In this document: one piece after another, positions 1-10,894 of the stretch | How positions within the stretch are numbered: the first letter of the stretch is position 1 | How the letters are laid out: the number at the start of each line of letters is the position of its first letter | IMG/VR virus record: IMGVR_UViG_2617271085_000020 | Coordinates: 1-14,800 of that record | DNA from: a virus | Lineage: Duplodnaviria > Heunggongvirae > Uroviricota > Caudoviricetes | Strand: one strand, 5' to 3' | DNA length: 14,800 nucleotides | Notes under the pieces: model-generated | What the model saw: only the letters and a program-made list of their open reading frames with translations | The model's database searches: none | Told to the model about the DNA's origin: nothing | Made by a program: the position numbers and the translations under genes

Positions 1-275
1 GTTAAGCGAGATTTTGTGCCTGGCAGGCCATTGGGTTGAGAATATTAGAGTATTGGAAGCGCATTATAAGTTCATTCCTGCTCACAGTGAAATCAGATGT
101 GTACGAAATCACATTTTTTGCCTTTGGCTTGAGTGTAGACCTTAAGCGAGGAGCAGGATCTTCTTTCAGACTTATGGCATAATGCGCGGTTTGTCATATC
201 TCTTTTCAGGATACGCCTGTGTTAGTTTCCAGTAACGTCACAATATAGTTTCAAAGCAACTAATTTTGCTGTGAA

Positions 276-306: not shown

Positions 307-380
307 GTTGATAAGACGAATATAAGGTTAGATCCTTCGATTAATTAGCTACAATTTTGAATATACGAAAGGAGCATTTC

Positions 381-827
381 GTGGTTTTTGGGAATAGGCA
401 TCAACCTGATACGGAACCAGAAGAGCCTGTAAGTGTGGGGATACCAACAGCTGTTCCCAAGGGGAATTCTGGACGCAAATCATTCTCAAATCTTCGCAGA
501 GAGCTAACTGATGAGGAGCTTAGCTCTGCTGCGGTACAACGAATGTTGCTTGATGAGATTGAAAGATTAGATGGTGAATGCAATGATTTGCGTGTGATTC
601 GCGATAAGTTTCATACATCCGATAAACTTGTAGGAGTATTAGAAGAAAAATTCAAAACAAAAATTGCTTTGGAAATAATGCATGTGACATGTTTTCTAAT
701 TTCAGGCTCTGCCTTTGGATATGCCACTTCAAACTGGTCAACTCAGCCGACTGCCGCTGTGCTCGCGTTAGCTTTTGGTAGTGTGCTCACTGTCGGGGGG
801 ATAGCTGCAAAGGTGGTCAAGCCATGA
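381..827 (+). CDS. Hypothetical protein with a coiled-coil-like N-terminal part and two C-terminal hydrophobic (transmembrane-like) segments
   Basis: The ORF track gives 357..827 from a TTG. GTG at 381 is in the same frame and is preceded by AAAGGAG (368-374) at 6-nt spacing, so it is the more likely start. The C-terminus (IALEIMHVTCFLISGSAFGYA ... TAAVLALAFGSVLTVGGIAAKVV) is hydrophobic. The stop overlaps the next start (ATGA at 824-827). No family recognised. Confidence 0.45.
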   Translation: MVFGNRHQPDTEPEEPVSVGIPTAVPKGNSGRKSFSNLRRELTDEELSSAAVQRMLLDEIERLDGECNDLRVIRDKFHTSDKLVGVLEEKFKTKIALEIMHVTCFLISGSAFGYATSNWSTQPTAAVLALAFGSVLTVGGIAAKVVKP

Positions 828-1180
828 AAGTTAATATTACAGCAATTCGCGAACCTGGAAACTTAGATAAGGAACGAATTGTCATTCGAGTTGACAGTTC
901 ATGCAATATTGGAGAGTTTATACTGCTACAAACGGGATTTGAGAATGAGTCGGTAAACACTGGTATTTACGAAACATTTTGGTTTCCGGATAAACCTGTT
1001 CGCGCTGGCGATCTTGTTGTCGTATATACAAAAGCAGGAAAAAGTAGTGAAAAGAAAAGTAATGATGCAACATCACATTTTTTCTATATAGGGAAAGCGA
1101 TTCCTATTTGGAATAGAAATGAACAAAGCGCGGTACTTATGCATGCACCTGAGTGGCAAAGTTTTCAGGCTGTGCTTTAG
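824..1180 (+). CDS. Hypothetical 118-aa soluble protein, translationally coupled to the upstream ORF
   Basis: ATG at 824 overlaps the upstream TGA (ATGA). The ORF is complete and ends with TAG at 1178-1180. No recognisable motif. Confidence 0.45.
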   Translation: MKVNITAIREPGNLDKERIVIRVDSSCNIGEFILLQTGFENESVNTGIYETFWFPDKPVRAGDLVVVYTKAGKSSEKKSNDATSHFFYIGKAIPIWNRNEQSAVLMHAPEWQSFQAVL

Positions 1181-1250: not shown

Positions 1251-3596
1251 TTACATTTTGCGTCTGTTTCCTGATTGAACAATTGATGTGATAATCTTTT
1301 CTTGCTTCTTGAGTTGTTCAGCAAACCAACGCTGATCAGTCACGTTTCCTTGTACGATTACACGAGCATCAATAGGCTGAGTCTTAGACTCGCTTTGATT
1401 ATTCAAGAAGTCTTTCAAATCTCCGTTAGTTCTCTGATCAACGACTCTTTCACCACCATCAAGCAGCCATGTTCCTTCTCTTGGAATTTCAGAAATGCCA
1501 TCGTGAGCCATACCAGTCATATTCACAGATTTCATGGACATAACTTGTCCTAAAACTTGCGCATAACTTGATGCGGCTAATGCGTATCCCAAAGGACCAG
1601 GATAAGTTGCCATTGCTTTAGTTGCAGATTGATATGCGTTTAACATACCATTTGCGATAGCTGTTCCTTTAGCTACTGCAAACGCAGCTTGAGCGGCTTT
1701 AGAGTTTTCACCCGAAATACCGGAAATAACACCAGCCATGCCTTGAGCAAAACCGTTATACATTCCCATTTTCGTTTGAATTTCCATCATAGCAATATTT
1801 TCAGACTGAACAGAATAAGCCTTGTCTAGTCGTCTTTTTTGCTCTAAAAATTGTTCATGCGACAAAAGTCCAGATTCGTACATTTTCTGATTCTGTTCTC
1901 TGAACCTTTCGAACTGTTGATTTAATGCTTCTTGCTCTAATGCCATTCTTTCTTCATCAGTTGCGAAACCAATTGAATTCAAGTTCTGCATATTCACCTG
2001 ATTAGCATCAATCTCTTTAATTGCTTTCATCTTCTCTTGATGTGCAATTTGGAGATTCTCTAACTGTTCGTTGTATTGCTGTTCTGAAATCAAGTTCTGT
2101 TGACGTTTAATATCCAGTTCTTGCTTTTGAATATCGAACATTTGATTCATCGACTGAGTGATAATGCCAATGTCAGCAGGATTAGCCTTAAGACTGTCGG
2201 AGAATTCTTTTGACGAGTTAATCAATAGAGAATTACGACGTTCTAGGAATTGCTCCTGTGAGATTATCCCTTTGTCTCTTAGTTCTTGAAGCTTTGTTAG
2301 TGCTTGCTGAGTCTGATTAATCTGAGAAGCATATGAACGTCCTTCTTGAGCAATAACCGCAACGTCTAACTGTTTCAGAGATTCAACTGCCTGAGCACGA
2401 TCAGCCATCATTTTGTCATAATCAGCTTTGGCTTTAGCCATTGCAGCTTTACGTTCCCTTTCGGCTTTATCAGCAGCAGATTTTCTTTCACGTTCAGCTT
2501 TATCAGCAGCGTCTTTTTCTTTCTTCGCTTTTTCTTCTAAGACTTTCTGGCGAGCCTTATTTGCCATCGTTTCTTGTTCAGCTAAACGAACTAGCTGATT
2601 AACTTGTTTTTTAAGCAACTTGGCATTTTCTGCAATAAACGCCTGACGCTTTTCAATTTCGATTGCTTCAACAGACTTTCCGATATTCTGCACTTGACCA
2701 GAGGACATACCAGAAGGAGTTATACCCTTTTTGTTATTCTCTCTTAGCCATTTCGCAAAAGACGTTTCACTCCAATCAATACCATCCATCCACTCATAAA
2801 GATTGTTAAATTCACGAACTAATGGACTAGCAGCTTCGACCGTGAATTCATTAGTTGCTTTCTTCAAAGAATTCATGTTTCTTTCATATTCTTTGAATTC
2901 GTCGGCAACGTCTTGAGTAATTGAAACTGTTTGACCTTGAATTGCGTTTAATGCGTCTTGGGTATTAGAAAAATTCTGTAATGTTGAAATCAAATGAGAA
3001 CCATCAGACGCCATTGATTCCATTGCGTTAGTAATTTCAGCAGATGATTTACCAGCGGCTCTTAATTGATAGAACGTGTCGATTAATGCTTTAATACCAC
3101 CTTCGGCATCACCAGCATATTTTGCATAATCTTCAAGTTTTAAACCCCATTCTTCTAAGTCGTCGGCAATACCACCACCGCCAGCTCTCAAAGAATCACC
3201 GAGTTTATCCATTGCGTCTTTGTTTAAATCACCGAATTTCTCAACGTCCATTCCGGTAGCTTTGAACGTTGATTGCAACTGTTGAAGCATTTCAATAGAA
3301 ACGCCAGTTGTTGTGTTAACCTGATTTAATACGTTAACAGTTTCAGCAGCTTTATTAATTGCAGCAAAACCAGCACCTGCAACTAACCCCGCTGCACCCA
3401 ATGCGCGTAACGCAGGGGACATACTTTGAATCGTGCTGAGACCATCGCTGAGACCATTTAGTGGACCTGTGAAATTACTAAAAAGACCCTGAGCGGCTGA
3501 ATCAAGTTTATTCAGTTCGTCCATAGAGTCTTTTACAGCAGTAGACAGTCCTTTATTATCTCCGCGAATCTCAACATCATAACGAGAATTCGCCAT
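1251..3596 (-). CDS. Tail tape measure protein (781 aa)
   Basis: Large, strongly coiled-coil protein (e.g. KAKKEKDAADKAERERKSAADKAERERKAAMAKAK) with Gly/Ala-rich hydrophobic segments near both ends (LRALGAAGLVAGAGFAAI; AFAVAKGTAIANGMLNAYQ ... PGPLGYALAASSYAQVLG). It lies immediately downstream of a G/T chaperone-like ORF pair, with its ATG embedded in TAATAATG at the end of the T ORF. The assignment rests on architecture and context, not on a database hit. Confidence 0.6.
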   Translation of the reverse strand: MANSRYDVEIRGDNKGLSTAVKDSMDELNKLDSAAQGLFSNFTGPLNGLSDGLSTIQSMSPALRALGAAGLVAGAGFAAINKAAETVNVLNQVNTTTGVSIEMLQQLQSTFKATGMDVEKFGDLNKDAMDKLGDSLRAGGGGIADDLEEWGLKLEDYAKYAGDAEGGIKALIDTFYQLRAAGKSSAEITNAMESMASDGSHLISTLQNFSNTQDALNAIQGQTVSITQDVADEFKEYERNMNSLKKATNEFTVEAASPLVREFNNLYEWMDGIDWSETSFAKWLRENNKKGITPSGMSSGQVQNIGKSVEAIEIEKRQAFIAENAKLLKKQVNQLVRLAEQETMANKARQKVLEEKAKKEKDAADKAERERKSAADKAERERKAAMAKAKADYDKMMADRAQAVESLKQLDVAVIAQEGRSYASQINQTQQALTKLQELRDKGIISQEQFLERRNSLLINSSKEFSDSLKANPADIGIITQSMNQMFDIQKQELDIKRQQNLISEQQYNEQLENLQIAHQEKMKAIKEIDANQVNMQNLNSIGFATDEERMALEQEALNQQFERFREQNQKMYESGLLSHEQFLEQKRRLDKAYSVQSENIAMMEIQTKMGMYNGFAQGMAGVISGISGENSKAAQAAFAVAKGTAIANGMLNAYQSATKAMATYPGPLGYALAASSYAQVLGQVMSMKSVNMTGMAHDGISEIPREGTWLLDGGERVVDQRTNGDLKDFLNNQSESKTQPIDARVIVQGNVTDQRWFAEQLKKQEKIITSIVQSGNRRKM
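2448..2510 (-). repeat. Near-tandem 30-nt repeat (two copies, 33-nt period) inside the tape measure gene, encoding AADKAERERK twice
   Basis: Plus-strand copies at 2448-2477 and 2481-2510. The peptide is identical in both copies but three codons differ synonymously (gcc/gct, agg/cgt, cgt/aga). Confidence 0.6.
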
Positions 3597-3598
3597 TA

Positions 3599-3946
3599 TT
3601 ATTTCCTATTTTTAGCTTTTGCTTTCGCAAGAAGTTTCGGGTCGAACATAGATTCCATTTTCTTTCTGTTGGCTTCTGCGGCTTTTTTCTGTTCTTCTTC
3701 CAGTTCTTCAGGAGATTTAAAAACTTTATCCTTGATGAACATGAAATCTTTCAGTTTTAATTTCTTCGAACCTTCTTTTGTAATATTTGGATTATTAGCA
3801 AAAACAGAAAATGCTATATGCGCTTGATGTAAGTCATTTACAGCAGGACCTTGAGGTTCAATGAAAGTTTCATATATCCACAGTTCATAGAAATCCTTAA
3901 TACTCATATCCAGAATTTCACGTTCGGTAAAACCTCTACGCAACAT
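3599..3946 (-). CDS. Tail assembly chaperone T-like ORF, probably expressed as a G-T fusion by -1 frameshift
   Basis: The ORF is in the -1 frame relative to the upstream 98-aa ORF. Its reading frame is open upstream of its own ATG as far as 4093, overlapping the last ~37 codons of the G-like ORF. There is no Shine-Dalgarno sequence in front of its ATG (aaattcagaaccATG). It sits immediately upstream of the tape measure gene and has a basic, Lys-rich C-terminus. Confidence 0.45.
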   Translation of the reverse strand: MLRRGFTEREILDMSIKDFYELWIYETFIEPQGPAVNDLHQAHIAFSVFANNPNITKEGSKKLKLKDFMFIKDKVFKSPEELEEEQKKAAEANRKKMESMFDPKLLAKAKAKNRK

Positions 3947-3981
3947 GGTTCTGAATTTGAATATTTTATAAGGATTCTGCC

Positions 3982-4278
3982 TTAATTCTTTTCCACAGCG
4001 TGAGTTTCTTCTTTCATAACAGAAGCAGCAGAAACAGCAGCAGAAAGTTGAGCGCGAACGGTGGTATAAAGTTGTTTGACTTGTTCGATATTTTCAAAAA
4101 CAGGGGATCCGTCTTCGTTCTCAATGCATTTCAGAATCATATTATCGGTCTGGTCTTCCATAAAAAAGAATTTACCAAATTCTTCAACGGTCATTGCGCG
4201 AACATAAAATTTAAAACCTTTGATTTCTACAACTTCTCGTTTTGCTCCGAGAGCGGCGATCATTTCTTCGAATTTCAT
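3982..4278 (-). CDS. Tail assembly chaperone G-like protein (98 aa)
   Basis: Small acidic ORF directly upstream of the T-like ORF and tape measure gene, preceded by an AGGA ribosome-binding site. This is the canonical G / GT / TMP arrangement of long-tailed phages. Confidence 0.45.
   Translation of the reverse strand: MKFEEMIAALGAKREVVEIKGFKFYVRAMTVEEFGKFFFMEDQTDNMILKCIENEDGSPVFENIEQVKQLYTTVRAQLSAAVSAASVMKEETHAVEKN
3988..3994 (-). promoter_or_regulatory. Candidate -1 ribosomal slip site G GAA AAG near the end of the G-like ORF
   Basis: mRNA reads ...gct gtg gaa aag aat taa. A -1 shift at GAA-AAG would read GGA-AAA and continue in the open T frame. The heptamer is not a canonical X XXY YYZ motif, so the exact site is uncertain; the shift could occur anywhere in 3985-4093. 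Confidence 0.2.
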
Positions 4279-4323
4279 TTCTTAATCCTATAGTTAATTT
4301 AAATGTTTACTTTATTTATGCCG

Positions 4324-4356
4324 AAAAAGGAGCTATCACGAAGATAACTCCTTTTG
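4324..4356 (-). terminator. Stem-loop (8-bp AAAAGGAG/CTCCTTTT stem with inner 4-bp TATC/GATA stem) between the 106-aa gene and the G-like gene; possible terminator or attenuator
   Basis: Inverted repeat read directly from the sequence. The U-run forms part of the stem, so terminator strength is uncertain. It is followed on the minus strand by cATAAATAaag, which resembles but does not match a T4 late promoter (TATAAATA). Confidence 0.3.
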
Positions 4357-4357
4357 A

Positions 4358-4678
4358 TTACTCGATGAATTGGAAGAAATATCCAATCATTCTGAATCCT
4401 TTATGAATATATTCTTGCTGAAAAATACAAACAGCATTTTGTTCAAAGAAAGGACCATTGATTTCTACGATTTCATTATTCTTGAAATGATAACGAGGTT
4501 TCTTTTTCTGAGTGCTAACAATAAAAACGTTTTGGTCGTTTTGAAGATTCCTTTTTATACGAGTTTCTTTCACCAGTTCAAAGCTATAAGGAATAGTCAT
4601 CGACTCTGGATTGTGCTCTTTGATAAAAATAGAATCGAGTTCGTCAACACGATATGTTTCAAAATCATTTAAGTTCAT
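4358..4678 (-). CDS. Hypothetical protein (106 aa from the ATG at 4678)
   Basis: The ORF track begins at 4711, but the ATG at 4678 is preceded by a strong ribosome-binding site (aaAAGGAGAcaaaATG) and avoids overlap with the upstream gene. No family recognised. Confidence 0.5.
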   Translation of the reverse strand: MNLNDFETYRVDELDSIFIKEHNPESMTIPYSFELVKETRIKRNLQNDQNVFIVSTQKKKPRYHFKNNEIVEINGPFFEQNAVCIFQQEYIHKGFRMIGYFFQFIE

Positions 4679-4694
4679 TTTGTCTCCTTTTCTT

Positions 4695-5234
4695 TTATTT
4701 AGTAGCAACACGACGAACCGTTTTTATGATGTCATTACCAATATCAGTCCAAGAACCAATAGATTTCTTACGAGTTTGATGACGTTTGAAAATAGCAATA
4801 ACTCTTTTGTTCTGTTTTTTAACATTTGTCTTAATCAGAATCGTTCTGTTAATACCATCTTTCTTTTGTTTGACTGCCTCTAGGTTTCTACGAGTTTTTA
4901 ATCCTGGAATGTTACCGAACTGGTTAGTCGAACCTCTTACCCCTGTTGGAACATATTTGTTAATCGGACTGTTATCATCTATCAAGTGTGAAAGATAATT
5001 CGCCTGAACGTCTTTGATAAAGATTCTGTTAGTTGTTCCTTCTTTATCAATCTTAAATCTGAACCCAACGGCGTTCTTGGTGAAATTCACAGGTCCTTCA
5101 ACACGTCGATTAATCTTTCGTTGTAACTCAACAGAAGCGAGTTTAGACGCTTTAGTTACTCTTTTAGAGAACTGATCAGATTCTTTTATTCGCCATTTGT
5201 CTAAGTCTTTTTTAACTCCACCAAGTTTCGCCAT
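4695..5234 (-). CDS. Hypothetical highly basic (Lys/Arg-rich) 179-aa protein without cysteine
   Basis: Complete ORF whose start overlaps the stop of the upstream 70-aa ORF at 5234. The composition suggests a nucleic-acid-binding or internal virion protein. No family recognised. Confidence 0.45.
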   Translation of the reverse strand: MAKLGGVKKDLDKWRIKESDQFSKRVTKASKLASVELQRKINRRVEGPVNFTKNAVGFRFKIDKEGTTNRIFIKDVQANYLSHLIDDNSPINKYVPTGVRGSTNQFGNIPGLKTRRNLEAVKQKKDGINRTILIKTNVKKQNKRVIAIFKRHQTRKKSIGSWTDIGNDIIKTVRRVATK

Positions 5235-5446
5235 TACATACTCCCAAATGAAACAATTGCAAAGATATATTTCATAGCTTCATCAAGAGGAACGATAGGA
5301 AGAACTATTCCGAAGAAACTCAATGCACACGGAACAACGATGTAATTATAAACAGCCATTGCAATCATCGCGTAAATGAATTTCTTTTTAAAGTCCCCTG
5401 TCATTGCTGGAAGTTTCTTGAATGCAGCTTTCATTTTTTCAATCAT
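5234..5446 (-). CDS. Small hydrophobic membrane protein (70 aa), holin-like in size and topology
   Basis: Basic N-terminus (MIEKMKAAFKKLPAMTGDFKKK) followed by two to three hydrophobic segments. It overlaps the end of the nuclease gene by 8 nt. It lacks the charged C-terminal tail typical of holins, so the holin call is tentative. Confidence 0.4.
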   Translation of the reverse strand: MIEKMKAAFKKLPAMTGDFKKKFIYAMIAMAVYNYIVVPCALSFFGIVLPIVPLDEAMKYIFAIVSFGSM

Positions 5447-5894
5447 ACTTCACCTTTAAATTTTGTTTGTACAAGTTAATGAGAGATTTTTTATCACCAA
5501 CTGGATTTATGTCCTCTGCTAATAAAGTCTCTTTCATTTGCTTTAACGTCATTTTCGAAAAGCGCTTTGATAGGTCTGTTACAAGTTGAGGATGAATAGG
5601 ATTTTTAGAATTATCTTTTTCGAGATAAGTTACCAATCTTTTTAAAAAATCAATATATTCGATGTGCTTCGCTAAACCTGAATACATGAATTGATGTTTT
5701 AATCTGCCCTCAAGGACGTTTGCCTGTGCGAGTAATAATCCTCGGCATCGTCCAGCTTGAGAACCATCAAGAGCGTGGTCATGGTCTAAATGGGCTTTAT
5801 TAACATCGGTAATTTCTATCCCAGTTAAAGCACATCTTTTATTTTGTTTATCAAAAAGGGTTTTCTTGTAATTATTTATTTCTTTTCGTTTCAC
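5439..5894 (-). CDS. Endonuclease VII-like (T4 gp49 family) junction-resolving nuclease, 151 aa, GTG start
   Basis: The motif KAHLDHDHALDGSQAGRCRGLLLAQANVLEGRLKHQF aligns with the T4 Endo VII catalytic core (ANHLDHDHELNGPKAGKVRGLLCNLCNAAEGQMKHKF, recalled from memory). The downstream ...VTYLEKDNSKNPIHPQLV matches ...LTYLKSDYTQNNIHPNFV. The catalytic Asp/His/His/Asn/Glu positions are conserved. Confidence 0.6.
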   Translation of the reverse strand: MKRKEINNYKKTLFDKQNKRCALTGIEITDVNKAHLDHDHALDGSQAGRCRGLLLAQANVLEGRLKHQFMYSGLAKHIEYIDFLKRLVTYLEKDNSKNPIHPQLVTDLSKRFSKMTLKQMKETLLAEDINPVGDKKSLINLYKQNLKVKYD

Positions 5895-6168
5895 TGTCTA
5901 TCACCGCTAATCGAATTTCGATTTCTCTAATTCGATTGTCTATACTTTTCATATCACCTTTAAACTCCTTAAACGAATCACGAACGTTGGTTAATTCAGT
6001 ATTTGCGTTTGAATCGGTCGCACTATTAAGAGCAACGCTTTTCTCGATTTCAGATAGTCTCTGTTCGATTTTTAAAGCGTCGGCTTCCATTGCGTTCTTT
6101 TGAGACCAAATCCATCCAAAGCCAGCGCATAGCAGTCCCGCGAAAGAAATGATGGCTTCAACACCCAT
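5872..6168 (-). CDS. Membrane-anchored coiled-coil protein (98 aa): one N-terminal transmembrane segment then a coiled coil; possible spanin, holin or antiholin-like protein
   Basis: N-terminus MGVEAIISFAGLLCAGFGWIW is hydrophobic; the remainder is heptad-like and charged (EADALKIEQRLSEIEKS ... IREIEIRLAVIDSE). Preceded by an AAGGAG ribosome-binding site. Function not established. Confidence 0.4.
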   Translation of the reverse strand: MGVEAIISFAGLLCAGFGWIWSQKNAMEADALKIEQRLSEIEKSVALNSATDSNANTELTNVRDSFKEFKGDMKSIDNRIREIEIRLAVIDSETKRNK

Positions 6169-6229
6169 TTTCTTTCTCCTTTTAAGACCTCCATGTCTTA
6201 TTTAGAAAAACGGATTTGGGGGAAAGAAA

Positions 6230-9200
6230 TCAAACTTTACTGATAAAATAAACTGCCCTTGAGGCTTCTGCTCGGTTTAATTCGACCGTATAAGTTAAAT
6301 CAACAGCTTGTCCCGCTTCGATGTATGCGACACCACCGTTTGAACCGTTTAGAGATTGAGATTGAACGTAAACAACTTCTTGGCCGTTTGAGAGTCTTAA
6401 CCACGCTTTGCCACCACCCCAACCAGTACCACCAGAATAAGTTCTTCCGGCGATTGCAACGTTAGGAATAGCAATCATTCTTCTCCAACCAACAGCAGGA
6501 ATATGAACAGATCCCCACGGATCGACAAATCCCATTTTGATAACGTCACCTTCGATTCTGTCAGCGTAAACAGTCCCTGTGAAATAACCAGAACCACCTC
6601 TGATTTCTCCTGAGAAATAACCAGAATCAGCTTGAATATTTCCTTTAACTGTAACGTTTTGGAATGAAGCCCAACCATCTTTTCTAATTGTCCATCCTTG
6701 AGTACCACCGGAAGGAACCCAGTTATCAGAGGATATTTCCCAGGCAATTTGTGCTGAACCGATTTGAGCATTACCAATTTTCGCTGTTGTAATAGCACCG
6801 TCTTGAATCTGCGCGTTATTAATTGCAGCATTAGCAATTTTGGCATTATCAATTGCAGCATTAGCAATTTGAGCATTACCGATCGAAGCATTGCGAATCA
6901 TCGCGCTTTGTAAATAAACTCTATCATCTGCGACCATGAACGGTGGAACAGCATTAGGAGCAGTGTTATTATTTGTTATAGCAATCTTATCAGCGTTAAA
7001 AATAATGCTTGAGGCTTTATTTCCCGCAGCGTCCTTAGATGCCAACATACTAATACCAGCTACGACACCATCGGCGTTTGTAGAAACAGCCCATTTACTG
7101 TTAACAGTTCCTGCTAAATCGTCAACGCTTGCTTTTGCTTCGGTAGAAACAGTCGCGACCATATCCGTAGTTTCAGCTTTTAATTGGCTGATTTGTGAAG
7201 CTGTTGCAGCACGATCATCCGCTTGGGTTTTCTCAACTTCGGTTATAGCAGAGTTTAACTTACCGTCAAAATCAGCCGTTTGAATCGTAATAGCCTGATT
7301 GATAGCGCCTTGCGTTTCATTCGTTATCTGAGTATGCAACGTTGTATTAGACGTGCTGATCTTCTGATCAATCTCGGTTGTTACTTCCTGCTTAGTTGAT
7401 GTTATCTGAGTATCGGTATAAGCATTTGCGAGTTCTAAAGCGTCCTCGATAGCACCATCAACTCGTTGGTCTAAATCAAGCAAGTCGTTTAACTGGTCTT
7501 TCATATCTTCTGTCCATGGAATATCCCATTTCATGTTGATATAAACTGATTCAGTCCAAACTAATTGGTCTTGTCCGAAAACGTCATACCATGCAGCTCG
7601 AACATAATATTCACCGTCAACTAACGGGAAGTTTTCAATGAACTGGCTAGAACTCAACTGAACTTGATTAATGTCAGTGAATTCAGGATTATTTGAAACT
7701 TGAATAACAGTTCCAGAATAATCAGGTGCAACACTCATTGGATCGTTCCAAGAACACATCAATAATCCAGGACCATTCGAAGCAGTAAAACCGATTATTG
7801 CAGGAGCTTGATTATTTCTTACGATTAATTCAGTAGGTTCAGATCTTAAACCTGAATAACCAACAGCAGTGATTTCAAATTTAATTTCACGACTGATACC
7901 GTTTTGCTGGTTCATTCGTAAATCATAAATGAAGCTCAAATCTTTAGTTCTGTATACAACAGGTCTTTGTCCAGTGATTTTGATTTCGTAATACTGAAAT
8001 ACTTGTTCGAAAGTCTGTTGAACGCCGTCAACTTCGAATTTCTCTGAACTCTGATTATCCCATGCAAATTCAAATTGCGTTTGTTGCGTAACGTTGTTAT
8101 TAAACTCAGAGTTAACAAGTCTTAGACCACGAACTTTAGGCAGATTATAAACGACATCAGGGTTAACATTCATTGAATAAACCCATTCAGACGTATAGAA
8201 AACACCAGAAGCACAAACACGAATATCATATTTCTGCAATGGGTCCATGTTCATAATCAAGTAAGAATTTCCTGATGTGAATCCTGCTTGAGTCCATTGG
8301 TTTGTTCCTGCAACTGCATATTGAATATAAAAACCTGAACGGTTAAAATCTTGCTCTGAATTCCATGAAACTTTAAAAGTTCTTCCTAAAGCTGTTTCTG
8401 AAACGCTTGAAACTTTAAGATTCGTAGGAGCAATCAAGTATCCTTTGTTTGGTACGTTTGAACCGTTGTTATTAGGATCTTTCGCATAGTCTAAATCGGT
8501 ATAAACTTCTTCAATATATTCAGTAGCTGTGATGTTAACGATACCAGCAACGCCCTTATTCATTGAACGACTAACGTTAGTAACGCGCCATAACGAATCT
8601 TGCAAATTTAATTCATCAAAGTTAACTCTGATAACATCCCAAACTTGAATAGTATAGGAATCAGGAGAACTAAAGCTGATAATCTGTTTTAACAGTGATT
8701 TGTTACGTTCGATTGAAGCAAGTTTGTCCAATTGGTCTTTAGATTTCACAAAACGATAATTAACATCTTTCGCGATAATACGTTTATCATATTGAATTGT
8801 TTTGTCGGTCGTCACGTCAGATGGATAACGAAGAACTTGCTCGGAATAATCGATTGCAGGATCTTGATATTTCACGTTCAGCGTATTGTAATATTCCTCT
8901 GAACCACCTGAATTCAACGAAACTGAACCAGCAGAAATATTTTCTTCATCGAAATCAAATGAAACAACATCAGGACCATCGATTTTGCAATAAACTTGTC
9001 CGAATGATTCGAAAATCATTCCGTTAAAAGCACCTGCAAGCTGAGTTAAGTTTTCTTTAAACGTTGCGTTAGGGTCTGTTGCACCATCGGAAAATAGTTG
9101 ATTGCTTAAAGCATAATTTGCAGCAGCTTTAAAACTATCAAGGTTAATTTTATCAAGTGAAACTCCTAATCCGTATCGTTCGTTCGTCAGATAATCGACA

Positions 9201-9910
9201 ATCTGACTTGCACCGTTGCGAGATGGAACGATTTGTCCCGTGTTTAAGTCAGTAATCAAACGTCCTCTAACATCAACAGCGACCTGACTGTTAGGTTGTA
9301 GGATATCAGCTTGGTTTTGTAAGTCTGAATTTCGTTTCTGCATTACGATACAGCAAGAAGCGACACCGTTACCTGTAGCAGAAACAGGCCAGCCACTTGG
9401 GTCATTTCCTAAGTATTGTTCAGCAAGTTTGAAATGATGACCTTGTTCTTTACCAACAGAGAATTCAACTTGCACATAGTCTTGATATTGAGAAACGATT
9501 GAACCTCTTGAAACAATTCCATCACGATAAACGGCATCATTCAGAATACGCTTGTTATCGATATAAAGGTTTTTAAAGCTATCAACTTCACCTTCGGCAA
9601 TTGCAAAAATTTGCACCAAATAAGTCGTATCATTTCCTACAGCATCCCAAACGTTAATTGTTCCTGTGCGTTGTTCACCGTAGATAATCGGTAATACAGT
9701 TGAAGGATCAGACGTTGTTCCTAATGTTGTTGCGGTATCACTTGTATTAAATCGAGGAACAGTTGGTTGCATAGCTGTTGACATTAAAGCGGAAACAGCA
9801 GCAACAGCAACACCAATACCGATTGAAATAGCTAATGCCATCCCAGCGGCATAAGCAGCAAGACCAGCAGAAGCACCAGCGATGATTGCACCAATTGCGA
9901 CAATAGCCAT
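6230..9910 (-). CDS. Central tail fibre / host specificity protein, lambda gpJ-like, with an N-terminal gpI C-domain-like segment (1226 aa)
   Basis: The N-terminal 90 aa (hydrophobic Gly/Ala-rich stretch then ...STVLPIIYGEQRTGTINVWDAV) resemble the lambda gpI C-terminus (...NVLPVLYGEMRVGSRVVSQ). The remainder has fibronectin-III-like segments and a C-terminal region like lambda J (PPFMVADDRVYLQSAMIRNASIGNAQI ... GEIRGG ... DRIEGDVIK versus PMFVAQGNQIFMNDVFL ... TLRAEKIVGDIV). Lambda sequences are recalled from memory. Confidence 0.75.
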   Translation of the reverse strand: MAIVAIGAIIAGASAGLAAYAAGMALAISIGIGVAVAAVSALMSTAMQPTVPRFNTSDTATTLGTTSDPSTVLPIIYGEQRTGTINVWDAVGNDTTYLVQIFAIAEGEVDSFKNLYIDNKRILNDAVYRDGIVSRGSIVSQYQDYVQVEFSVGKEQGHHFKLAEQYLGNDPSGWPVSATGNGVASCCIVMQKRNSDLQNQADILQPNSQVAVDVRGRLITDLNTGQIVPSRNGASQIVDYLTNERYGLGVSLDKINLDSFKAAANYALSNQLFSDGATDPNATFKENLTQLAGAFNGMIFESFGQVYCKIDGPDVVSFDFDEENISAGSVSLNSGGSEEYYNTLNVKYQDPAIDYSEQVLRYPSDVTTDKTIQYDKRIIAKDVNYRFVKSKDQLDKLASIERNKSLLKQIISFSSPDSYTIQVWDVIRVNFDELNLQDSLWRVTNVSRSMNKGVAGIVNITATEYIEEVYTDLDYAKDPNNNGSNVPNKGYLIAPTNLKVSSVSETALGRTFKVSWNSEQDFNRSGFYIQYAVAGTNQWTQAGFTSGNSYLIMNMDPLQKYDIRVCASGVFYTSEWVYSMNVNPDVVYNLPKVRGLRLVNSEFNNNVTQQTQFEFAWDNQSSEKFEVDGVQQTFEQVFQYYEIKITGQRPVVYRTKDLSFIYDLRMNQQNGISREIKFEITAVGYSGLRSEPTELIVRNNQAPAIIGFTASNGPGLLMCSWNDPMSVAPDYSGTVIQVSNNPEFTDINQVQLSSSQFIENFPLVDGEYYVRAAWYDVFGQDQLVWTESVYINMKWDIPWTEDMKDQLNDLLDLDQRVDGAIEDALELANAYTDTQITSTKQEVTTEIDQKISTSNTTLHTQITNETQGAINQAITIQTADFDGKLNSAITEVEKTQADDRAATASQISQLKAETTDMVATVSTEAKASVDDLAGTVNSKWAVSTNADGVVAGISMLASKDAAGNKASSIIFNADKIAITNNNTAPNAVPPFMVADDRVYLQSAMIRNASIGNAQIANAAIDNAKIANAAINNAQIQDGAITTAKIGNAQIGSAQIAWEISSDNWVPSGGTQGWTIRKDGWASFQNVTVKGNIQADSGYFSGEIRGGSGYFTGTVYADRIEGDVIKMGFVDPWGSVHIPAVGWRRMIAIPNVAIAGRTYSGGTGWGGGKAWLRLSNGQEVVYVQSQSLNGSNGGVAYIEAGQAVDLTYTVELNRAEASRAVYFISKV
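6816..6875 (-). repeat. Tandem 30-bp direct repeat (two copies, about 27/30 identical) in the J-like gene, encoding the N-A-x-I peptide repeat region
   Basis: The 20-mer aattgcagcattagcaattt occurs at 6821-6840 and again at 6851-6870 with similar flanks. The protein here reads IANAAIDNAKIANAAINNAQI. Confidence 0.6.
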
Positions 9911-10326
9911 TATTTTCTCCTGTTAAAAATTAATTCGTATTCAAAATCTTTTACGTTTATCAAAGCGTATTTGTTGTTGTGTTCAATAATTGCTTTGTCG
10001 TTAAAGACAATCGACGCAACGTAATAAACTCGGCGTCTGTATGTTTTTTTAATTAAGACAATTGACCCTGTTTCGATAATGTTTGATTTTTCGAAATGCT
10101 TTTCACAAGCTTCTAAAACGTTATTAAAACCTGTAAGTTCTTTGCAGTGTTTTAAACCCGATTGAACAGAGTCATATTTGGAAATAAGTTTGCTTGCGTA
10201 ATCTGTTCCGCAAGTCATATCGATATATTCAGCGACAAGGATATTACAGTCGTTTTGACCGTATTTGTGTTCTTTGTTGATATAACGATTTAATAATTTT
10301 GATAAGTCAGCTTGAAATTTAAACAT
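9910..10326 (-). CDS. Lambda gpK-like tail assembly protein, NlpC/P60 (papain-like) domain only
   Basis: The motif KYGQNDCNILVAEYID resembles the lambda K catalytic-Cys region (HGVTDCYTLFRDAY), with a downstream His (IIEHNN). The stop overlaps the J-like start (TAATG at 9908-9912). The likely start is the ATG at 10326 (ribosome-binding site GAGGTG); the ORF track starts at GTG 10338. There is no JAB/MPN half. Confidence 0.45.
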   Translation of the reverse strand: MFKFQADLSKLLNRYINKEHKYGQNDCNILVAEYIDMTCGTDYASKLISKYDSVQSGLKHCKELTGFNNVLEACEKHFEKSNIIETGSIVLIKKTYRRRVYYVASIVFNDKAIIEHNNKYALINVKDFEYELIFNRRK

Positions 10327-10360
10327 TTTAAGATTCACCTCTGACTTTATTTAGAGCCAA

Positions 10361-10386
10361 AAAAAGACCCCGTTAGGAGTCTTTTA
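10361..10386 (-). terminator. Rho-independent terminator on the minus strand (AAAAGACUCC-UAAC-GGGGUCUUUU followed by UUU)
   Basis: On the minus-strand RNA the stem includes one G-U wobble pair and is followed by a U7 run. On the plus strand the same stem has a C-A mismatch, so it is oriented for the minus strand. It sits 20 nt after the 162-aa gene stop and directly before the gpK-like ribosome-binding site. Confidence 0.6.
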
Positions 10387-10405
10387 AGATTGAACAATAA
10401 AACGA

Positions 10406-10894
10406 TTAGCCTTCTGGAGTTGGAGCAGTCAAATCAACCAAAGCTTCGGCAATTGGACCACCATCAACACTCAGAGTCATAGCCTGTGCAGCAACTTCTG
10501 ATTCACCACCGGAATAAGTAGCGCTTGACAGGAAACCGTTATACATTTTTGCAACACCGATTTCTTTAGAAGCATCCATCCAATAAACGATTTTGAACTG
10601 ACCACGTTTACCATCTTCCGCAAGCTTATAAAGCTGATCATGAATAGACCCAGGAATATAGTTAACAGTCAAATCGATATCAGGAACAGAACCACGACCA
10701 ACCAGTTTACGGCTGTATTTGTGAGTAAAGTTAGGAGCAACGATTACCTCACGTTCGATACCAGTCGTAGGAAATGCGCCAACTTCAGGAACTTCTACGA
10801 ATTTCTCTGAGTCGATATCTTTGTTCAATACGTCAGAGTTGAAAAATACACTGACGTAAGAGCCAGCGAAAATATCATATGCTTTATCAGCCAT
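10406..10894 (-). CDS. Probable abundant virion structural protein (162 aa), possibly a major tail / tube-like protein
   Basis: Complete ORF with an AGGA ribosome-binding site, flanked by a stable hairpin upstream and a strong terminator downstream, which suggests high expression relative to neighbours. A loose resemblance to small siphovirus tail tube proteins (...KLAEDGKRGQFKIVYW...) is from memory only. Confidence 0.3.
   Translation of the reverse strand: MADKAYDIFAGSYVSVFFNSDVLNKDIDSEKFVEVPEVGAFPTTGIEREVIVAPNFTHKYSRKLVGRGSVPDIDLTVNYIPGSIHDQLYKLAEDGKRGQFKIVYWMDASKEIGVAKMYNGFLSSATYSGGESEVAAQAMTLSVDGGPIAEALVDLTAPTPEG

What the first reader, a model, noticed from the sequence alone, without database searches (positions are those of the whole stretch)
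4358..6168. Five-gene insert between the tail-tip and tape measure genes: membrane proteins flanking a nuclease, plus basic and unknown proteins
The genes are tightly overlapping (23-, 8- and 1-nt overlaps), implying co-translation as a unit. The 98-aa protein has an N-terminal transmembrane anchor plus coiled coil (spanin, antiholin or holin-like topology). The 70-aa protein is a two-transmembrane holin-sized protein. The 179-aa protein is extremely Lys/Arg-rich. No endolysin is recognisable, so this is not an ordinary lysis cassette. Candidates are a lysis-timing, exclusion or DNA-ejection-associated module, or a mobile insertion carrying the nuclease. The block is bounded by intergenic hairpins at 6190-6215 and 4324-4356.
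Basis: inference. Interest (0 to 1): 0.55.

Follow-up and report, generated by a model that had tools for sequence, protein, structure and literature searches.

The report
Phage late genes, not an insert
These five small genes are ordinary late genes of a dormant virus in the E. coli chromosome, including a tail-completion protein and a DNA-branch-cutting enzyme, and are neither a foreign insert nor a new lysis or exclusion system.

Summary
The five minus-strand ORFs are real and under purifying selection (dN/dS 0.09-0.19). The 23-, 8- and 1-nt overlaps are correct. The last gene is 106 aa, not 117 (ATG at 4678, AAGGAG ribosome-binding site). Only the downstream hairpin is significant.

The window is the end of a temperate siphovirus prophage beside E. 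coli ldtB. In about 25 related loci the run J, TM-coiled-coil, (endoVII), small TM protein, 179-aa, 106-aa is conserved. What moved in this lineage is chaperone/tape-measure (and Dit/hub), so the block is not an insert.

The nuclease is a full-length T4 gp49-type endonuclease VII. It is the only facultative gene of the block and has lost three of four zinc cysteines.

The 106-aa protein is a confident small beta-barrel that always follows the 179-aa gene; its role is unresolved.

The two membrane proteins have no assignable family. In relatives an endolysin follows the 106-aa gene, so a holin-type role is plausible but untested.

Verdict: mostly ordinary, low interest.

The parts
5872..6168 (-). 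98-aa protein: N-terminal transmembrane segment (residues 2-21) plus coiled coil. It always follows the J gene directly.
   Evidence: ORF. Hydropathy. Only weak coiled-coil-type matches: DUF1664 at 5.8e-5, below the Pfam cutoff, and phrog_736 at 1e-4. A homologue sits after J in all architectures, including L017 where the rest of the block lies elsewhere. dN/dS 0.15.
5439..5894 (-). 151-aa T4 gp49-type recombination endonuclease VII (GTG start, 23-nt overlap with the upstream gene).
   Evidence: Pfam Endonuclease_7 42.2 bits and Endonuc-dimeris 26.9 bits, both above their cutoffs. phrog_423 at 4e-35. E = 1.3e-27 over the full length to T4 endoVII PDB 1E7D/1EN7/2QNC. In the alignment with RB32 gp49 the HLDHDH, Asn and Glu positions are kept, but only 1 of 4 zinc cysteines.
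5234..5446 (-). 70-aa small membrane protein (phrog_2024, unknown function). Its stop overlaps the start of the 179-aa gene by 1 nt.
   Evidence: phrog_2024 at 4.4e-10. Hydrophobic stretch 23-65. Family alignment with invariant Y33, N34, P39, F45, P50. It lies directly upstream of the 179-aa homologue in the loci read gene by gene (L002, L004, L013, L017, L026, L028 and PSS-15) and was detected there in most other loci, but not in DCP80. dN/dS 0.09.
4695..5234 (-). 179-aa basic protein: lambda gpZ / Neck1-type tail completion protein (phrog_1924 subfamily).
4358..4678 (-). 106-aa acidic small beta-barrel protein, the obligate downstream partner of the 179-aa gene (true start ATG 4678).
4324..4356 (-). 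Intrinsic-terminator-like hairpin plus T-run after the 106-aa gene.
   Evidence: -17.8 kcal/mol, z -4.6, 0 of 200 shuffles as good. Hairpins at the same position with different stems in PSS-15, L002, L008 and L009.
6230..9910 (-). Context: J-type central tail fibre / tail tip protein, 1226 aa.
   Evidence: Pfam Phage_Tail_Tip 2e-23, Phage-tail_3, fn3. phrog_31 'central tail fiber J' 2.5e-68.
1251..4278 (-). Context: tail assembly chaperone (3982-4278), T-like protein (3599-3946) and tape measure protein (1251-3596). This is the segment that was relocated in this lineage.
   Evidence: phrog_344 and phrog_337, weak Phage_TAC_13 and Phage_tail_T. phrog_13674 'tape measure' 9e-62. Different position in L001, L004, L013, L017 and L026.

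Best explanation
The block is the distal end of the late (tail) operon of a temperate siphovirus prophage with a lambda-J / gene-transfer-agent-type tail tip, integrated beside E. coli ldtB. It is a string of separate late functions packed for coupled translation, not one module and not an insert.

1. The 179-aa Lys/Arg-rich protein is a gpZ-type tail completion protein. This rests on remote homology and predicted fold. By analogy with 80alpha gp51 (inferred), one or a few copies would sit in the lumen at the head-proximal end of the finished tail. There they would grip the N-termini of the tape measure protein and present a positive face to the end of the packaged DNA. This would make tails competent to join heads and to route DNA correctly at infection.

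2. The 106-aa beta-barrel protein encoded directly after it in every relative is most likely its structural partner: a ring or terminator-like neck protein, or a dedicated chaperone. This is inferred from gene linkage and a tube/stopper-like fold and is not resolved.

3. The 151-aa protein is a T4 gp49-type endonuclease VII. It would be made late to cut branched or Holliday-junction DNA so that genomes can be packaged. Homology is shown; the role is inferred from T4. It is the only facultative gene of the block, wedged between the two membrane-protein genes in this lineage.

4. The 98-aa TM-coiled-coil protein and the 70-aa membrane protein are small inner-membrane proteins of unknown family. 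In relatives that keep the ancestral order the run is J, TMcc, TM, TCP, 106-aa, soluble endolysin. I saw no other small membrane-protein gene close to the endolysin in the loci I read (not searched systematically). A holin or lysis-control role is therefore the most likely one (inference, about 40-50%).

In the window's lineage the endolysin and the Dit/hub genes ended up at the other prophage end, and TAC-T-TMP was placed after the 106-aa gene behind a terminator-like hairpin.
For: Prophage setting: window 1-256 matches more than 5,400 E. coli chromosomes at up to 99.6%, and the PSS-15 relative is flanked by ldtB and ybiT.

Synteny: about 25 related loci in five arrangements all keep J-TMcc and TM-179-106.
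- Canonical-order relatives place an M15 peptidase or T4-type lysozyme directly after the 106-aa gene.
- In L017/L018 the unit TM-179-106-lysozyme lies on the opposite strand to the tail genes.

The 179-aa protein as a tail completion protein:
- phrog_1924 hit.
- The model has a long N-terminal helix, a beta domain and a C-terminal helix. This is the lambda gpZ layout described in bioRxiv 10.1101/2024.12.10.627806.
- 27 of 100 family members hit phrog_27 'tail completion or Neck1' and 12 of 100 hit Pfam Minor_tail_Z. Three of those tested score above the curated cutoff, one over nearly the full length.
- The basic charge is family-wide and shared with lambda gpZ.
- It is the only family member in the PSS-15 prophage, whose head-to-tail cluster holds only two other small genes.

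EndoVII.

Real genes: dN/dS 0.09-0.19.

Terminator after the 106-aa gene.
Against: - The 179-aa protein itself has no direct Pfam hit. hhalign of the family against the single lambda gpZ sequence gives only 26% probability, over the N-terminal helix.
- Its gene is not in the canonical position of a tail completion gene, directly upstream of the terminator and tube genes (PMC11099176, PMC11784142).
- Family members in isolated phages also lie outside the neck cluster. RcRhea gp45 is the last gene before the cos end and terS. phiNP_029 lies between the lysis genes and terS. The subfamily could therefore have a role other than classical tail completion.
- The location of tail completion proteins is itself disputed. 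T5 p143 sits at the tail tip (PMC11784142).
- Nothing ties either membrane protein to a known holin, antiholin or spanin family.
- The endoVII has lost three of four zinc ligands and may be impaired.
Confidence: 0.62

Rival explanations
1. The whole block is a lysis cassette whose endolysin was displaced. The 98-aa and 70-aa proteins would be holin/antiholin. The cationic 179-aa protein and its 106-aa partner would be lysis accessories, for example an outer-membrane disruptor replacing spanins.
For: In relatives the order is TMcc-TM-179-106-endolysin with almost no intergenic space. In L017/L018 TM-179-106-lysozyme moves as one unit away from the tail genes. The endolysin sequences read (PSS-15, L004, L013, L017, L026, L028) show no N-terminal hydrophobic signal or anchor by eye, so a holin is needed. 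No spanin pair was seen next to the endolysin. The 179-aa protein is strongly cationic.
Against: The 179-aa protein belongs to a family that overlaps gpZ/Neck1 profiles, and its best structural match is a solved tail completion protein. It is a folded 179-aa protein with no signal peptide or TM segment. Its relatives in RcRhea and L022 are not next to an endolysin. The 106-aa protein is acidic and cytoplasmic by sequence.
Confidence: 0.12
2. The 179-aa protein is a gpZ-fold paralogue that works outside the virion, as a DNA-end or packaging accessory acting with terminase. It would not be a structural tail completion protein.
For: Family members are repeatedly encoded next to packaging genes or genome ends rather than in the neck cluster. 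RcRhea gp45 lies directly before cos and terS. phiNP_029 lies directly before terS. The L022 homologue follows replication genes and a small HTH protein at the contig end. In the window it shares an operon segment with a packaging-related resolvase. The strong positive charge suits DNA binding.
Against: The RcRhea record calls gp45 a 'minor tail protein'. Profile overlap is with Neck1/gpZ families only. The PSS-15 prophage has no other candidate tail completion gene. In 80alpha the solved homologous fold is inside the tail (bioRxiv 10.1101/2024.12.10.627806).
Confidence: 0.13
3. The 98-aa membrane-anchored coiled-coil protein, with or without the 70-aa protein, is a superinfection-exclusion or receptor/entry-blocking moron carried at the end of the tail operon. 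This would resemble other small membrane proteins encoded beside receptor-binding genes.
For: It stays glued to the 3' end of the J gene in every arrangement. It diverges much faster than its neighbours: 21-35% identity in loci where J is about 60-73% identical. It is an inner-membrane protein with no enzymatic signature.
Against: No match to any PADLOC defence or exclusion model beyond coiled-coil noise. It sits inside the late operon with a 23-nt overlap to the next gene and no promoter or terminator of its own. That arrangement suits late expression rather than lysogenic expression. Coiled coils evolve fast in general.
Confidence: 0.1
4. The five genes are a horizontally acquired mobile cassette driven by the nuclease acting as a homing endonuclease.
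For: The nuclease gene is patchy among relatives and sits at another place, inverted, in L017/L018. The G+C content of the block (0.32-0.36) is slightly below that of the large tail genes.
Against: The other four genes are present in the great majority of the relatives (a few TMcc or TM copies escaped tblastn; no TM gene was seen in DCP80). There are no flanking direct or inverted repeats. The nuclease is a full-length orthologue of T4 gp49, a structure-specific resolvase with its dimerisation domain, not a homing enzyme. Its reading frame overlaps both neighbours.
Confidence: 0.03

Closest known systems
Lambda gpZ / HK97 gp10 / SPP1 gp16.1 / 80alpha gp51 tail completion proteins (TCP, 'Neck1'; Pfam PF06763 and PF04883, PHROG 27 and 5)
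   Different: No direct profile hit for this protein. The gene is encoded after the tail-tip gene, behind a small membrane-protein gene, instead of between the head-completion and terminator genes. It is followed by a 106-aa beta-barrel gene rather than a gpU-type terminator.
phrog_1924 'minor tail protein', e.g. Rhodobacter phage RcRhea/RcCronus gp45 and Citrobacter phage phiNP_029
   Same: Same sequence family: the narrow window-clade profile A1 matches them at E about 7e-7 and 3e-7, and the broad family profile A5 at E = 7e-59 and 4e-50. RcRhea shares the overall virion plan: gpW-like gene between terminase and portal, protease-capsid fusion, and a Dit-hub-peptidase-megatron/J tail tip. The gene lies outside the neck cluster there too.
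   Different: In RcRhea it is the last gene before the cos end. In phiNP it lies between the lysis genes and terS. Neither has homologues of the 70-aa, 98-aa or 106-aa proteins. No experimental function is known for any member.
Phage T4 gp49, recombination endonuclease VII (PDB 1EN7, 1E7D, 2QNC)
   Same: 36% identity to the RB32 (T4-type) gp49 in the multiple alignment and about 39% in tblastn, over the whole length including the dimerisation domain. The positions equivalent to T4 D40, H41, H43, N62 and E65 are conserved (their role as active-site residues is from my own knowledge of T4 endoVII). It is encoded among late genes, as gene 49 is expressed late in T4 (own knowledge).
   Different: Only the first of the four zinc-binding cysteines is kept (Cys23, Cys26, Cys58, Cys61 in T4; the numbering is from my own knowledge of the T4 structure papers). 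A new Cys appears at the position of T4 Val53. The host is a small temperate siphovirus rather than a large lytic myovirus.
Holin-endolysin lysis cassettes with an accessory membrane-anchored coiled-coil protein (e.g. B. subtilis PBSX xhlA-xhlB-xlyA; lambda S-R-Rz/Rz1); comparison from own knowledge
   Same: A coiled-coil membrane protein is followed by a very small membrane protein upstream of a soluble endolysin in the canonical-order relatives. There is a weak partial hit of the 98-aa protein to phrog_1193 'hemolysin' (XhlA-type; that reading is mine) and to an Rz-like spanin PHROG.
   Different: Two soluble genes (179 aa and 106 aa) separate the membrane proteins from the endolysin. No Pfam or NCBIfam holin or spanin model matches. 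I saw no lipobox in the overlapping ORF 6072-6194, which I translated by eye, and no separate o-spanin gene nearby. In the window itself the endolysin is absent.

Membership tests
Tail completion protein (lambda gpZ / Neck1) | Direct match of the protein to a curated TCP profile (Pfam PF06763/PF04883, PHROG 27/5) | tested here: not met
   No Pfam family at E <= 0.1. The only PHROG hit is phrog_1924 'minor tail protein' at 2.4e-7.
Tail completion protein (lambda gpZ / Neck1) | Transitive homology: the protein's own family overlaps TCP profiles | tested here: met
   180 representatives at E <= 1e-3. Of 100 members, 27 hit phrog_27 'tail completion or Neck1' (best 6.6e-10), 3 hit phrog_5 and 12 hit Pfam Minor_tail_Z. 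P0113 scores 24.3 bits over profile positions 9-177 of 190, P0195 24.1 and P0199 31.2, against a cutoff of 23.9.
Tail completion protein (lambda gpZ / Neck1) | Fold: long N-terminal helix, beta-hairpin or beta domain, C-terminal helix, as in the solved 80alpha gp51 | tested here: met
Tail completion protein (lambda gpZ / Neck1) | Gene directly upstream of the terminator (THJP) and tube genes, after the head-completion genes | tested here: not met
   The gene lies downstream of J and of a membrane-protein gene. The tube-like gene is about 5 kb upstream. The same holds in all relatives. Criterion taken from PMC11099176 Table 1.
Tail completion protein (lambda gpZ / Neck1) | Present in tails or virions and required for infectious particles | not testable with these tools
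   Needs virion mass spectrometry and a knockout.
T4 endonuclease VII (gp49) | Endonuclease_7 catalytic domain plus endoVII dimerisation domain | tested here: met
   PF02945 42.2 bits (cutoff 23.6) and PF09124 26.9 bits (cutoff 22). E = 1.3e-27 to PDB 1E7D over residues 9-147.
T4 endonuclease VII (gp49) | Catalytic Asp40/His41/(His43)/Asn62/Glu65 (residue list from own knowledge) | tested here: met
   D40, H41, H43, N62 and E65 are invariant columns in alignment A6 with RB32 gp49.
T4 endonuclease VII (gp49) | Structural zinc site of four cysteines (C23, C26, C58, C61; from own knowledge) | tested here: not met
   The window protein has C, T, L and A at these columns. The same holds for PSS-15; L002 (C, S, I, A) and L013 (C, T, L, G) likewise keep only the first cysteine. 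DCP80 and L017 keep all four.
Holin (70-aa protein) | Small membrane protein with at least one TM domain encoded beside the endolysin, matching a known holin family | tested here: inconclusive
   One clear hydrophobic stretch. No holin family in Pfam or NCBIfam; phrog_2024 has unknown function. There is no endolysin in the window. In relatives it lies two genes downstream.
i-spanin (98-aa protein) | N-terminal TM plus periplasmic coiled coil, with an adjacent or embedded o-spanin lipoprotein gene | tested here: not met
   The topology fits. The only overlapping ORF (6072-6194, 40 aa) showed no lipobox when I translated it by eye, and the next gene is the nuclease. The Rz-like PHROG hit is only 5.9e-3.
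PilZ c-di-GMP receptor (106-aa protein) | PilZ beta-barrel with RxxxR and D/NxSxxG motifs | tested here: not met
Tail terminator / tail-to-head joining protein (106-aa protein) | Gene directly after the TCP gene; gpU-type or tube-type ring-forming fold | tested here: inconclusive
Mobile or homing cassette; anti-phage defence or exclusion system | Terminal repeats or target duplication, patchy presence of the whole unit, match to a defence model | tested here: not met
   Only short chance repeats. Four of the five genes recur in the great majority of the relatives. PADLOC gives no meaningful hit.

The most novel reading that the evidence does not exclude
The phrog_1924 branch of gpZ-like proteins may be a functionally distinct class of 'tail completion' protein.
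- It is habitually encoded outside the neck cluster. Here it is translationally coupled to a small membrane protein and a private beta-barrel partner and, ancestrally, lies next to the endolysin. In other phages it lies next to terS or the cos end.
- It could act somewhere other than the neck lumen, for example at the tail tip as proposed for T5 p143, or on the DNA end during packaging.
- The conserved unit TM protein, TCP, beta-barrel, endolysin could reflect a real functional link between finishing tails and lysis.
Probability: 0.15. Interest if true: 0.55.

Novelty: new member of a known kind. Interest (0 to 1): 0.25.

Why it matters
It matters little for the original claim. The 'insert' dissolves into normal late phage genes, and the odd-looking basic protein turns out to share a hallmark of gpZ-type tail completion proteins.

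Three by-products have modest value:
1. This is a well-conserved, uncharacterised subfamily of tail completion proteins that sits outside the neck gene cluster. The location and role of these proteins are still debated (PMC11784142; bioRxiv 10.1101/2024.12.10.627806).
2. This enterobacterial prophage group breaks the normally rigid siphovirus tail gene order in several different ways while staying under purifying selection.
3. A clade of T4-type endonuclease VII has lost its zinc site.

Tried and rejected
- DNA-level searches of the block against 50,697 phage records found nothing. The whole window matched only a 188-bp stretch of phage DCP80.
- tblastn with the 70-aa protein against phages found nothing.
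- Profile searches of the 179-aa and 106-aa families against PDB sequences gave only noise.
- hhalign of the 106-aa family against lambda gpU and gpFII was negative.
- hhalign of the 179-aa family against the single lambda gpZ sequence was weak: 26% probability, N-terminal helix only.
- Foldseek of the 106-aa model against BFVD found nothing at E <= 0.001.
- PHROG scan of all 32 members of the 106-aa family found no family.
- PADLOC and NCBIfam scans of all five proteins gave nothing meaningful.
- A genome-contig scan with the 179-aa family alignment gave no confirmed locus.
- A literature search for the endoVII zinc ligands returned nothing relevant, so that point rests on my own knowledge.
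- The repeat search around the block found only short chance matches in AT-rich DNA.
- Considered and rejected: PilZ receptor for the 106-aa protein (motifs absent); i-spanin for the 98-aa protein (no o-spanin partner); homing cassette (nuclease is gp49-type, frames overlap both neighbours); the upstream 'hairpin' (z = +0.66).
Full report
**What is in the window.**
- Positions 1-256 match more than 5,400 complete E. coli chromosomes at up to 99.6% identity. The rest is low-G+C prophage DNA.
- The closest complete-genome relative is E. coli PSS-15 (82.7% nucleotide identity, same gene order). It shows a roughly 34-kb prophage between ldtB and ybiT.
- All relevant window genes are on the minus strand. 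Read in the direction of transcription they are:
  - a fibre-like gene that runs off the window (13868 to beyond 14800);
  - an S74-chaperone tail fibre (10960-13815);
  - a 162-aa tube-like protein (10406-10894);
  - a DUF6950 protein (9910-10338);
  - a 1226-aa J-type central fibre (6230-9910);
  - the five ORFs of the finding;
  - a tail assembly chaperone (3982-4278) and a T-like protein (3599-3946);
  - a 781-aa tape measure protein (1251-3596).

**Check of the observation.**
- The five ORFs exist, and the 23-, 8- and 1-nt overlaps are exactly as described.
- Against the PSS-15 orthologues they are 73-93% identical in protein. dN/dS is 0.09-0.19, the same range as the flanking tail genes. 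They are real genes.
- Three details need correction:
  1. The last gene starts at ATG 4678 behind an AAGGAG ribosome-binding site and encodes 106 aa. A 100% identical 106-aa database protein and the PGAP call in PSS-15 agree.
  2. The upstream 'hairpin' at 6190-6215 folds no better than shuffled sequence (z = +0.66).
  3. The downstream hairpin at 4324-4356 is strong: 13 bp, -17.8 kcal/mol, z = -4.6, followed by a T-run. Hairpins with different stems sit at the same place in four other relatives of the same gene order.
- The 70-aa protein has one convincing membrane segment, not clearly two.

**Is it an insert? No.**
- I mapped a panel of proteins onto about 25 related loci: IMG/VR contigs, E. 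coli PSS-15, phage record DCP80, and prophages of Proteus and others.
- Five different arrangements of the tail region occur. Two sub-runs are constant:
  - J is always followed by the TM-coiled-coil gene.
  - The small TM gene, the 179-aa gene and the 106-aa gene always stay together.
- In relatives with the canonical siphovirus order (L004/L005, L026, L028) the operon ends with J, TMcc, TM, 179, 106 and then an endolysin (M15 peptidase or T4-type lysozyme). DCP80 has the same layout but with endoVII after J and no TMcc or small TM gene detected. The order upstream is TAC-T-TMP-Dit-hub-DUF6950-J.
- In L017/L018 the unit TM-179-106-lysozyme lies on the opposite strand, convergent with the tail genes.
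- In the window's lineage the TAC-T-TMP segment sits behind the 106-aa gene. Dit, hub and the lysozyme lie at the other prophage end beside a large serine recombinase, with Dit and hub on the other strand.
- The canonical order occurs in three divergent lineages, so the window's order is the derived one. The tape measure segment moved, not the block.
- The block has no flanking repeats.

**The 179-aa Lys/Arg-rich protein.**
- It hits phrog_1924 'minor tail protein' at 2.4e-7 and nothing in Pfam.
- An AlphaFold2 model from 31 homologues has pLDDT 80. It shows a long N-terminal helix, a beta domain and a C-terminal helix.
- Chain P's name fits the paper's tail completion protein gp51. [quoted passage not shown] It notes that lambda gpZ has an extra beta domain at the apex. 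That matches this model.
- A profile search of 1.84 billion cluster representatives found 180 family members.
- Of 100 members scanned, 84 hit phrog_1924, 27 hit phrog_27 'tail completion or Neck1 protein', 3 hit phrog_5 (same name) and 12 hit Pfam Minor_tail_Z.
- Three of ten members tested pass Pfam's curated cutoff, one over almost the whole profile.
- The 'extreme' basic charge is a family trait. All 100 members have pI above 9. Lambda gpZ itself is 24% Lys+Arg with pI 12.
- The broad family profile finds exactly one member in the PSS-15 prophage. Its head-to-tail cluster otherwise has only a gpW-like gene and two small genes of 100 and 132 aa.
- I conclude the protein is the phage's gpZ-type tail completion protein.
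- Caveats:
  - The link to gpZ is remote. hhalign against the single lambda sequence gives 26% probability.
  - The gene is not in the canonical position upstream of the terminator and tube genes (PMC11099176).
  - The same subfamily is displaced in isolated phages too. RcRhea gp45 is the last gene before the cos end and terS. phiNP_029 lies between the lysis genes and terS. Both are clear members of the same family by the profiles built here.

**How it most likely works (inferred from homologues).**
- 80alpha gp51 is a monomer in the neck lumen. It caps the DNA end with a positive surface and forms a sheet with the N-termini of three tape measure chains.
- SPP1 gp16.1 helps build the head-binding interface of the tail and is needed to route DNA into the cell.
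- The same is expected here.
- T5 p143, however, has been placed at the tail tip, and the authors question whether the family is uniform.

**The 106-aa protein.**
- It follows the 179-aa gene directly in every locus of this prophage group. It has no homologue in RcRhea, phiNP or L022.
- The model is very confident (pLDDT 91.7) and is an all-beta barrel.
- The PilZ c-di-GMP motifs are absent.
- BFVD, PHROGs, Pfam and hhalign against lambda U and FII give nothing.

**The nuclease.**
- It is a full-length relative of T4 gp49: both Pfam domains score above their cutoffs, E is 1.3e-27 to PDB 1E7D, and 1,550 phage records match, mostly T4-like phages.
- The catalytic HLDHDH, Asn and Glu positions are invariant. 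The window clade keeps only the first of the four zinc cysteines and has a new Cys elsewhere. DCP80 and L017 keep all four. The ligand numbering is from my own knowledge of the T4 structure.
- The gene is absent from L004/L005, L020, L026 and L028, where the two membrane-protein genes are adjacent. It is displaced and inverted in L017/L018.
- It is therefore the one facultative gene of the block.
- By analogy with T4, it would clear branched DNA before packaging.

**The two membrane proteins.**
- Neither matches a holin, antiholin, spanin or defence family beyond coiled-coil noise.
- The 98-aa protein has i-spanin-like topology but no partner lipoprotein gene.
- It diverges much faster than its neighbours: 21-35% identity in loci where J is about 60-73% identical.
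- The 70-aa family (phrog_2024) has a conserved membrane-embedded Tyr-Asn and Pro.
- The endolysins read show no signal peptide or membrane anchor by eye, and I saw no other small membrane-protein gene in the conserved run that ends with the endolysin. A holin or lysis-control role is therefore the most likely one. Superinfection exclusion is an alternative for the 98-aa protein. Both are inferences.

**Verdict.**
The interpretation as a special five-gene insert is not.
- The block is the tail end of a late operon. It holds a tail completion protein, its private partner, a packaging-type resolvase and two uncharacterised membrane proteins.
- Novelty is at the level of new members of known kinds.
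- The most interesting residue is the displaced, membrane-protein-coupled gpZ subfamily and the shuffled tail gene order of this prophage group.

Noticed in passing
window 1-256 (and boundary about 256-350): The left edge of the window is E. coli core chromosome (up to 99.6% identity to more than 5,400 genomes). The prophage therefore ends here, next to ldtB, and the tape measure gene is almost the last prophage gene.
   Followed up: partly
window 357-827 (+) and 824-1180 (+): Two overlapping plus-strand cargo genes lie between the attachment site and the tape measure gene: 156 aa with C-terminal hydrophobic segments, and 118 aa. They are absent from the PSS-15 relative, while the 118-aa protein is 95% identical in L011. 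There is no PHROG or PADLOC hit, no Pfam hit, and only sub-threshold NCBIfam matches. This may be a moron or a defence pair.
   Followed up: partly
window 1251-10894; L006/L007 (PSS-15), L013, L017, L004, L026: The tail module of this prophage family is shuffled in at least five ways. In the window type, TAC-T-TMP follows the J block, and the Dit and hub genes lie about 30 kb away at the other prophage end. There they sit on the other strand beside a large serine recombinase and the lysozyme. All tail genes remain under purifying selection. This is unusual for siphoviruses, whose tail gene order is normally rigid.
   Followed up: partly
window 5439-5894: The endonuclease VII clade of the window, PSS-15, L002 and L013 has replaced three of the four zinc-binding cysteines. 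In the window, C-A-L-T replaces CxxC and L..A replaces CxxC. The catalytic residues are all kept. Sister versions in DCP80 and L017 keep all four cysteines.
   Followed up: partly
window 13868 to beyond 14800 (-): The fibre-like gene runs off the window end. The 257-aa ORF in the mechanical list is only its 3' part. Its 342-aa homologue in PSS-15 has an N-terminal domain about 22% identical to the 162-aa tube-like protein, followed by a fibre-like C-terminal part. The phage therefore has two tube-fold genes.
   Followed up: partly
window 9770-9910 (N-terminus of the J-type protein): The J-type protein begins with a Gly/Ala-rich hydrophobic segment of about 45 residues (MAIVAIGAIIAGASAGLAAYAAGMALAISIGIGVAVAAVSALMS). 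The same segment is present in the J homologues of L002, L004, L013 and L017.
   Followed up: no
window 1251-3596: The tape measure protein carries a SHOCT motif match (PF09851, 4e-10, residues 432-458). The homologue in L028 has a weak one too.
   Followed up: no
window 5432-5446: The 70-aa gene has two in-frame ATG codons (Met1 and Met5). Homologues in other lineages start at the Met5-Lys6 position. With Met5 the gene would start 4 nt after the nuclease stop codon instead of overlapping it by 8 nt. This could be a dual start or a mis-set start.
   Followed up: no
L001 (PQ671644.1, Escherichia phage DCP80): This 141-kb record is classified as a T4-like Gaprivervirus. It nevertheless contains a complete siphovirus tail region of the window's prophage family (tube, chaperones, tape measure, Dit, hub, DUF6950, J, endoVII, 179-aa and 106-aa homologues, endolysin) next to T4-type genes (motA, rIIA). 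The record looks like a chimeric assembly.
   Followed up: no
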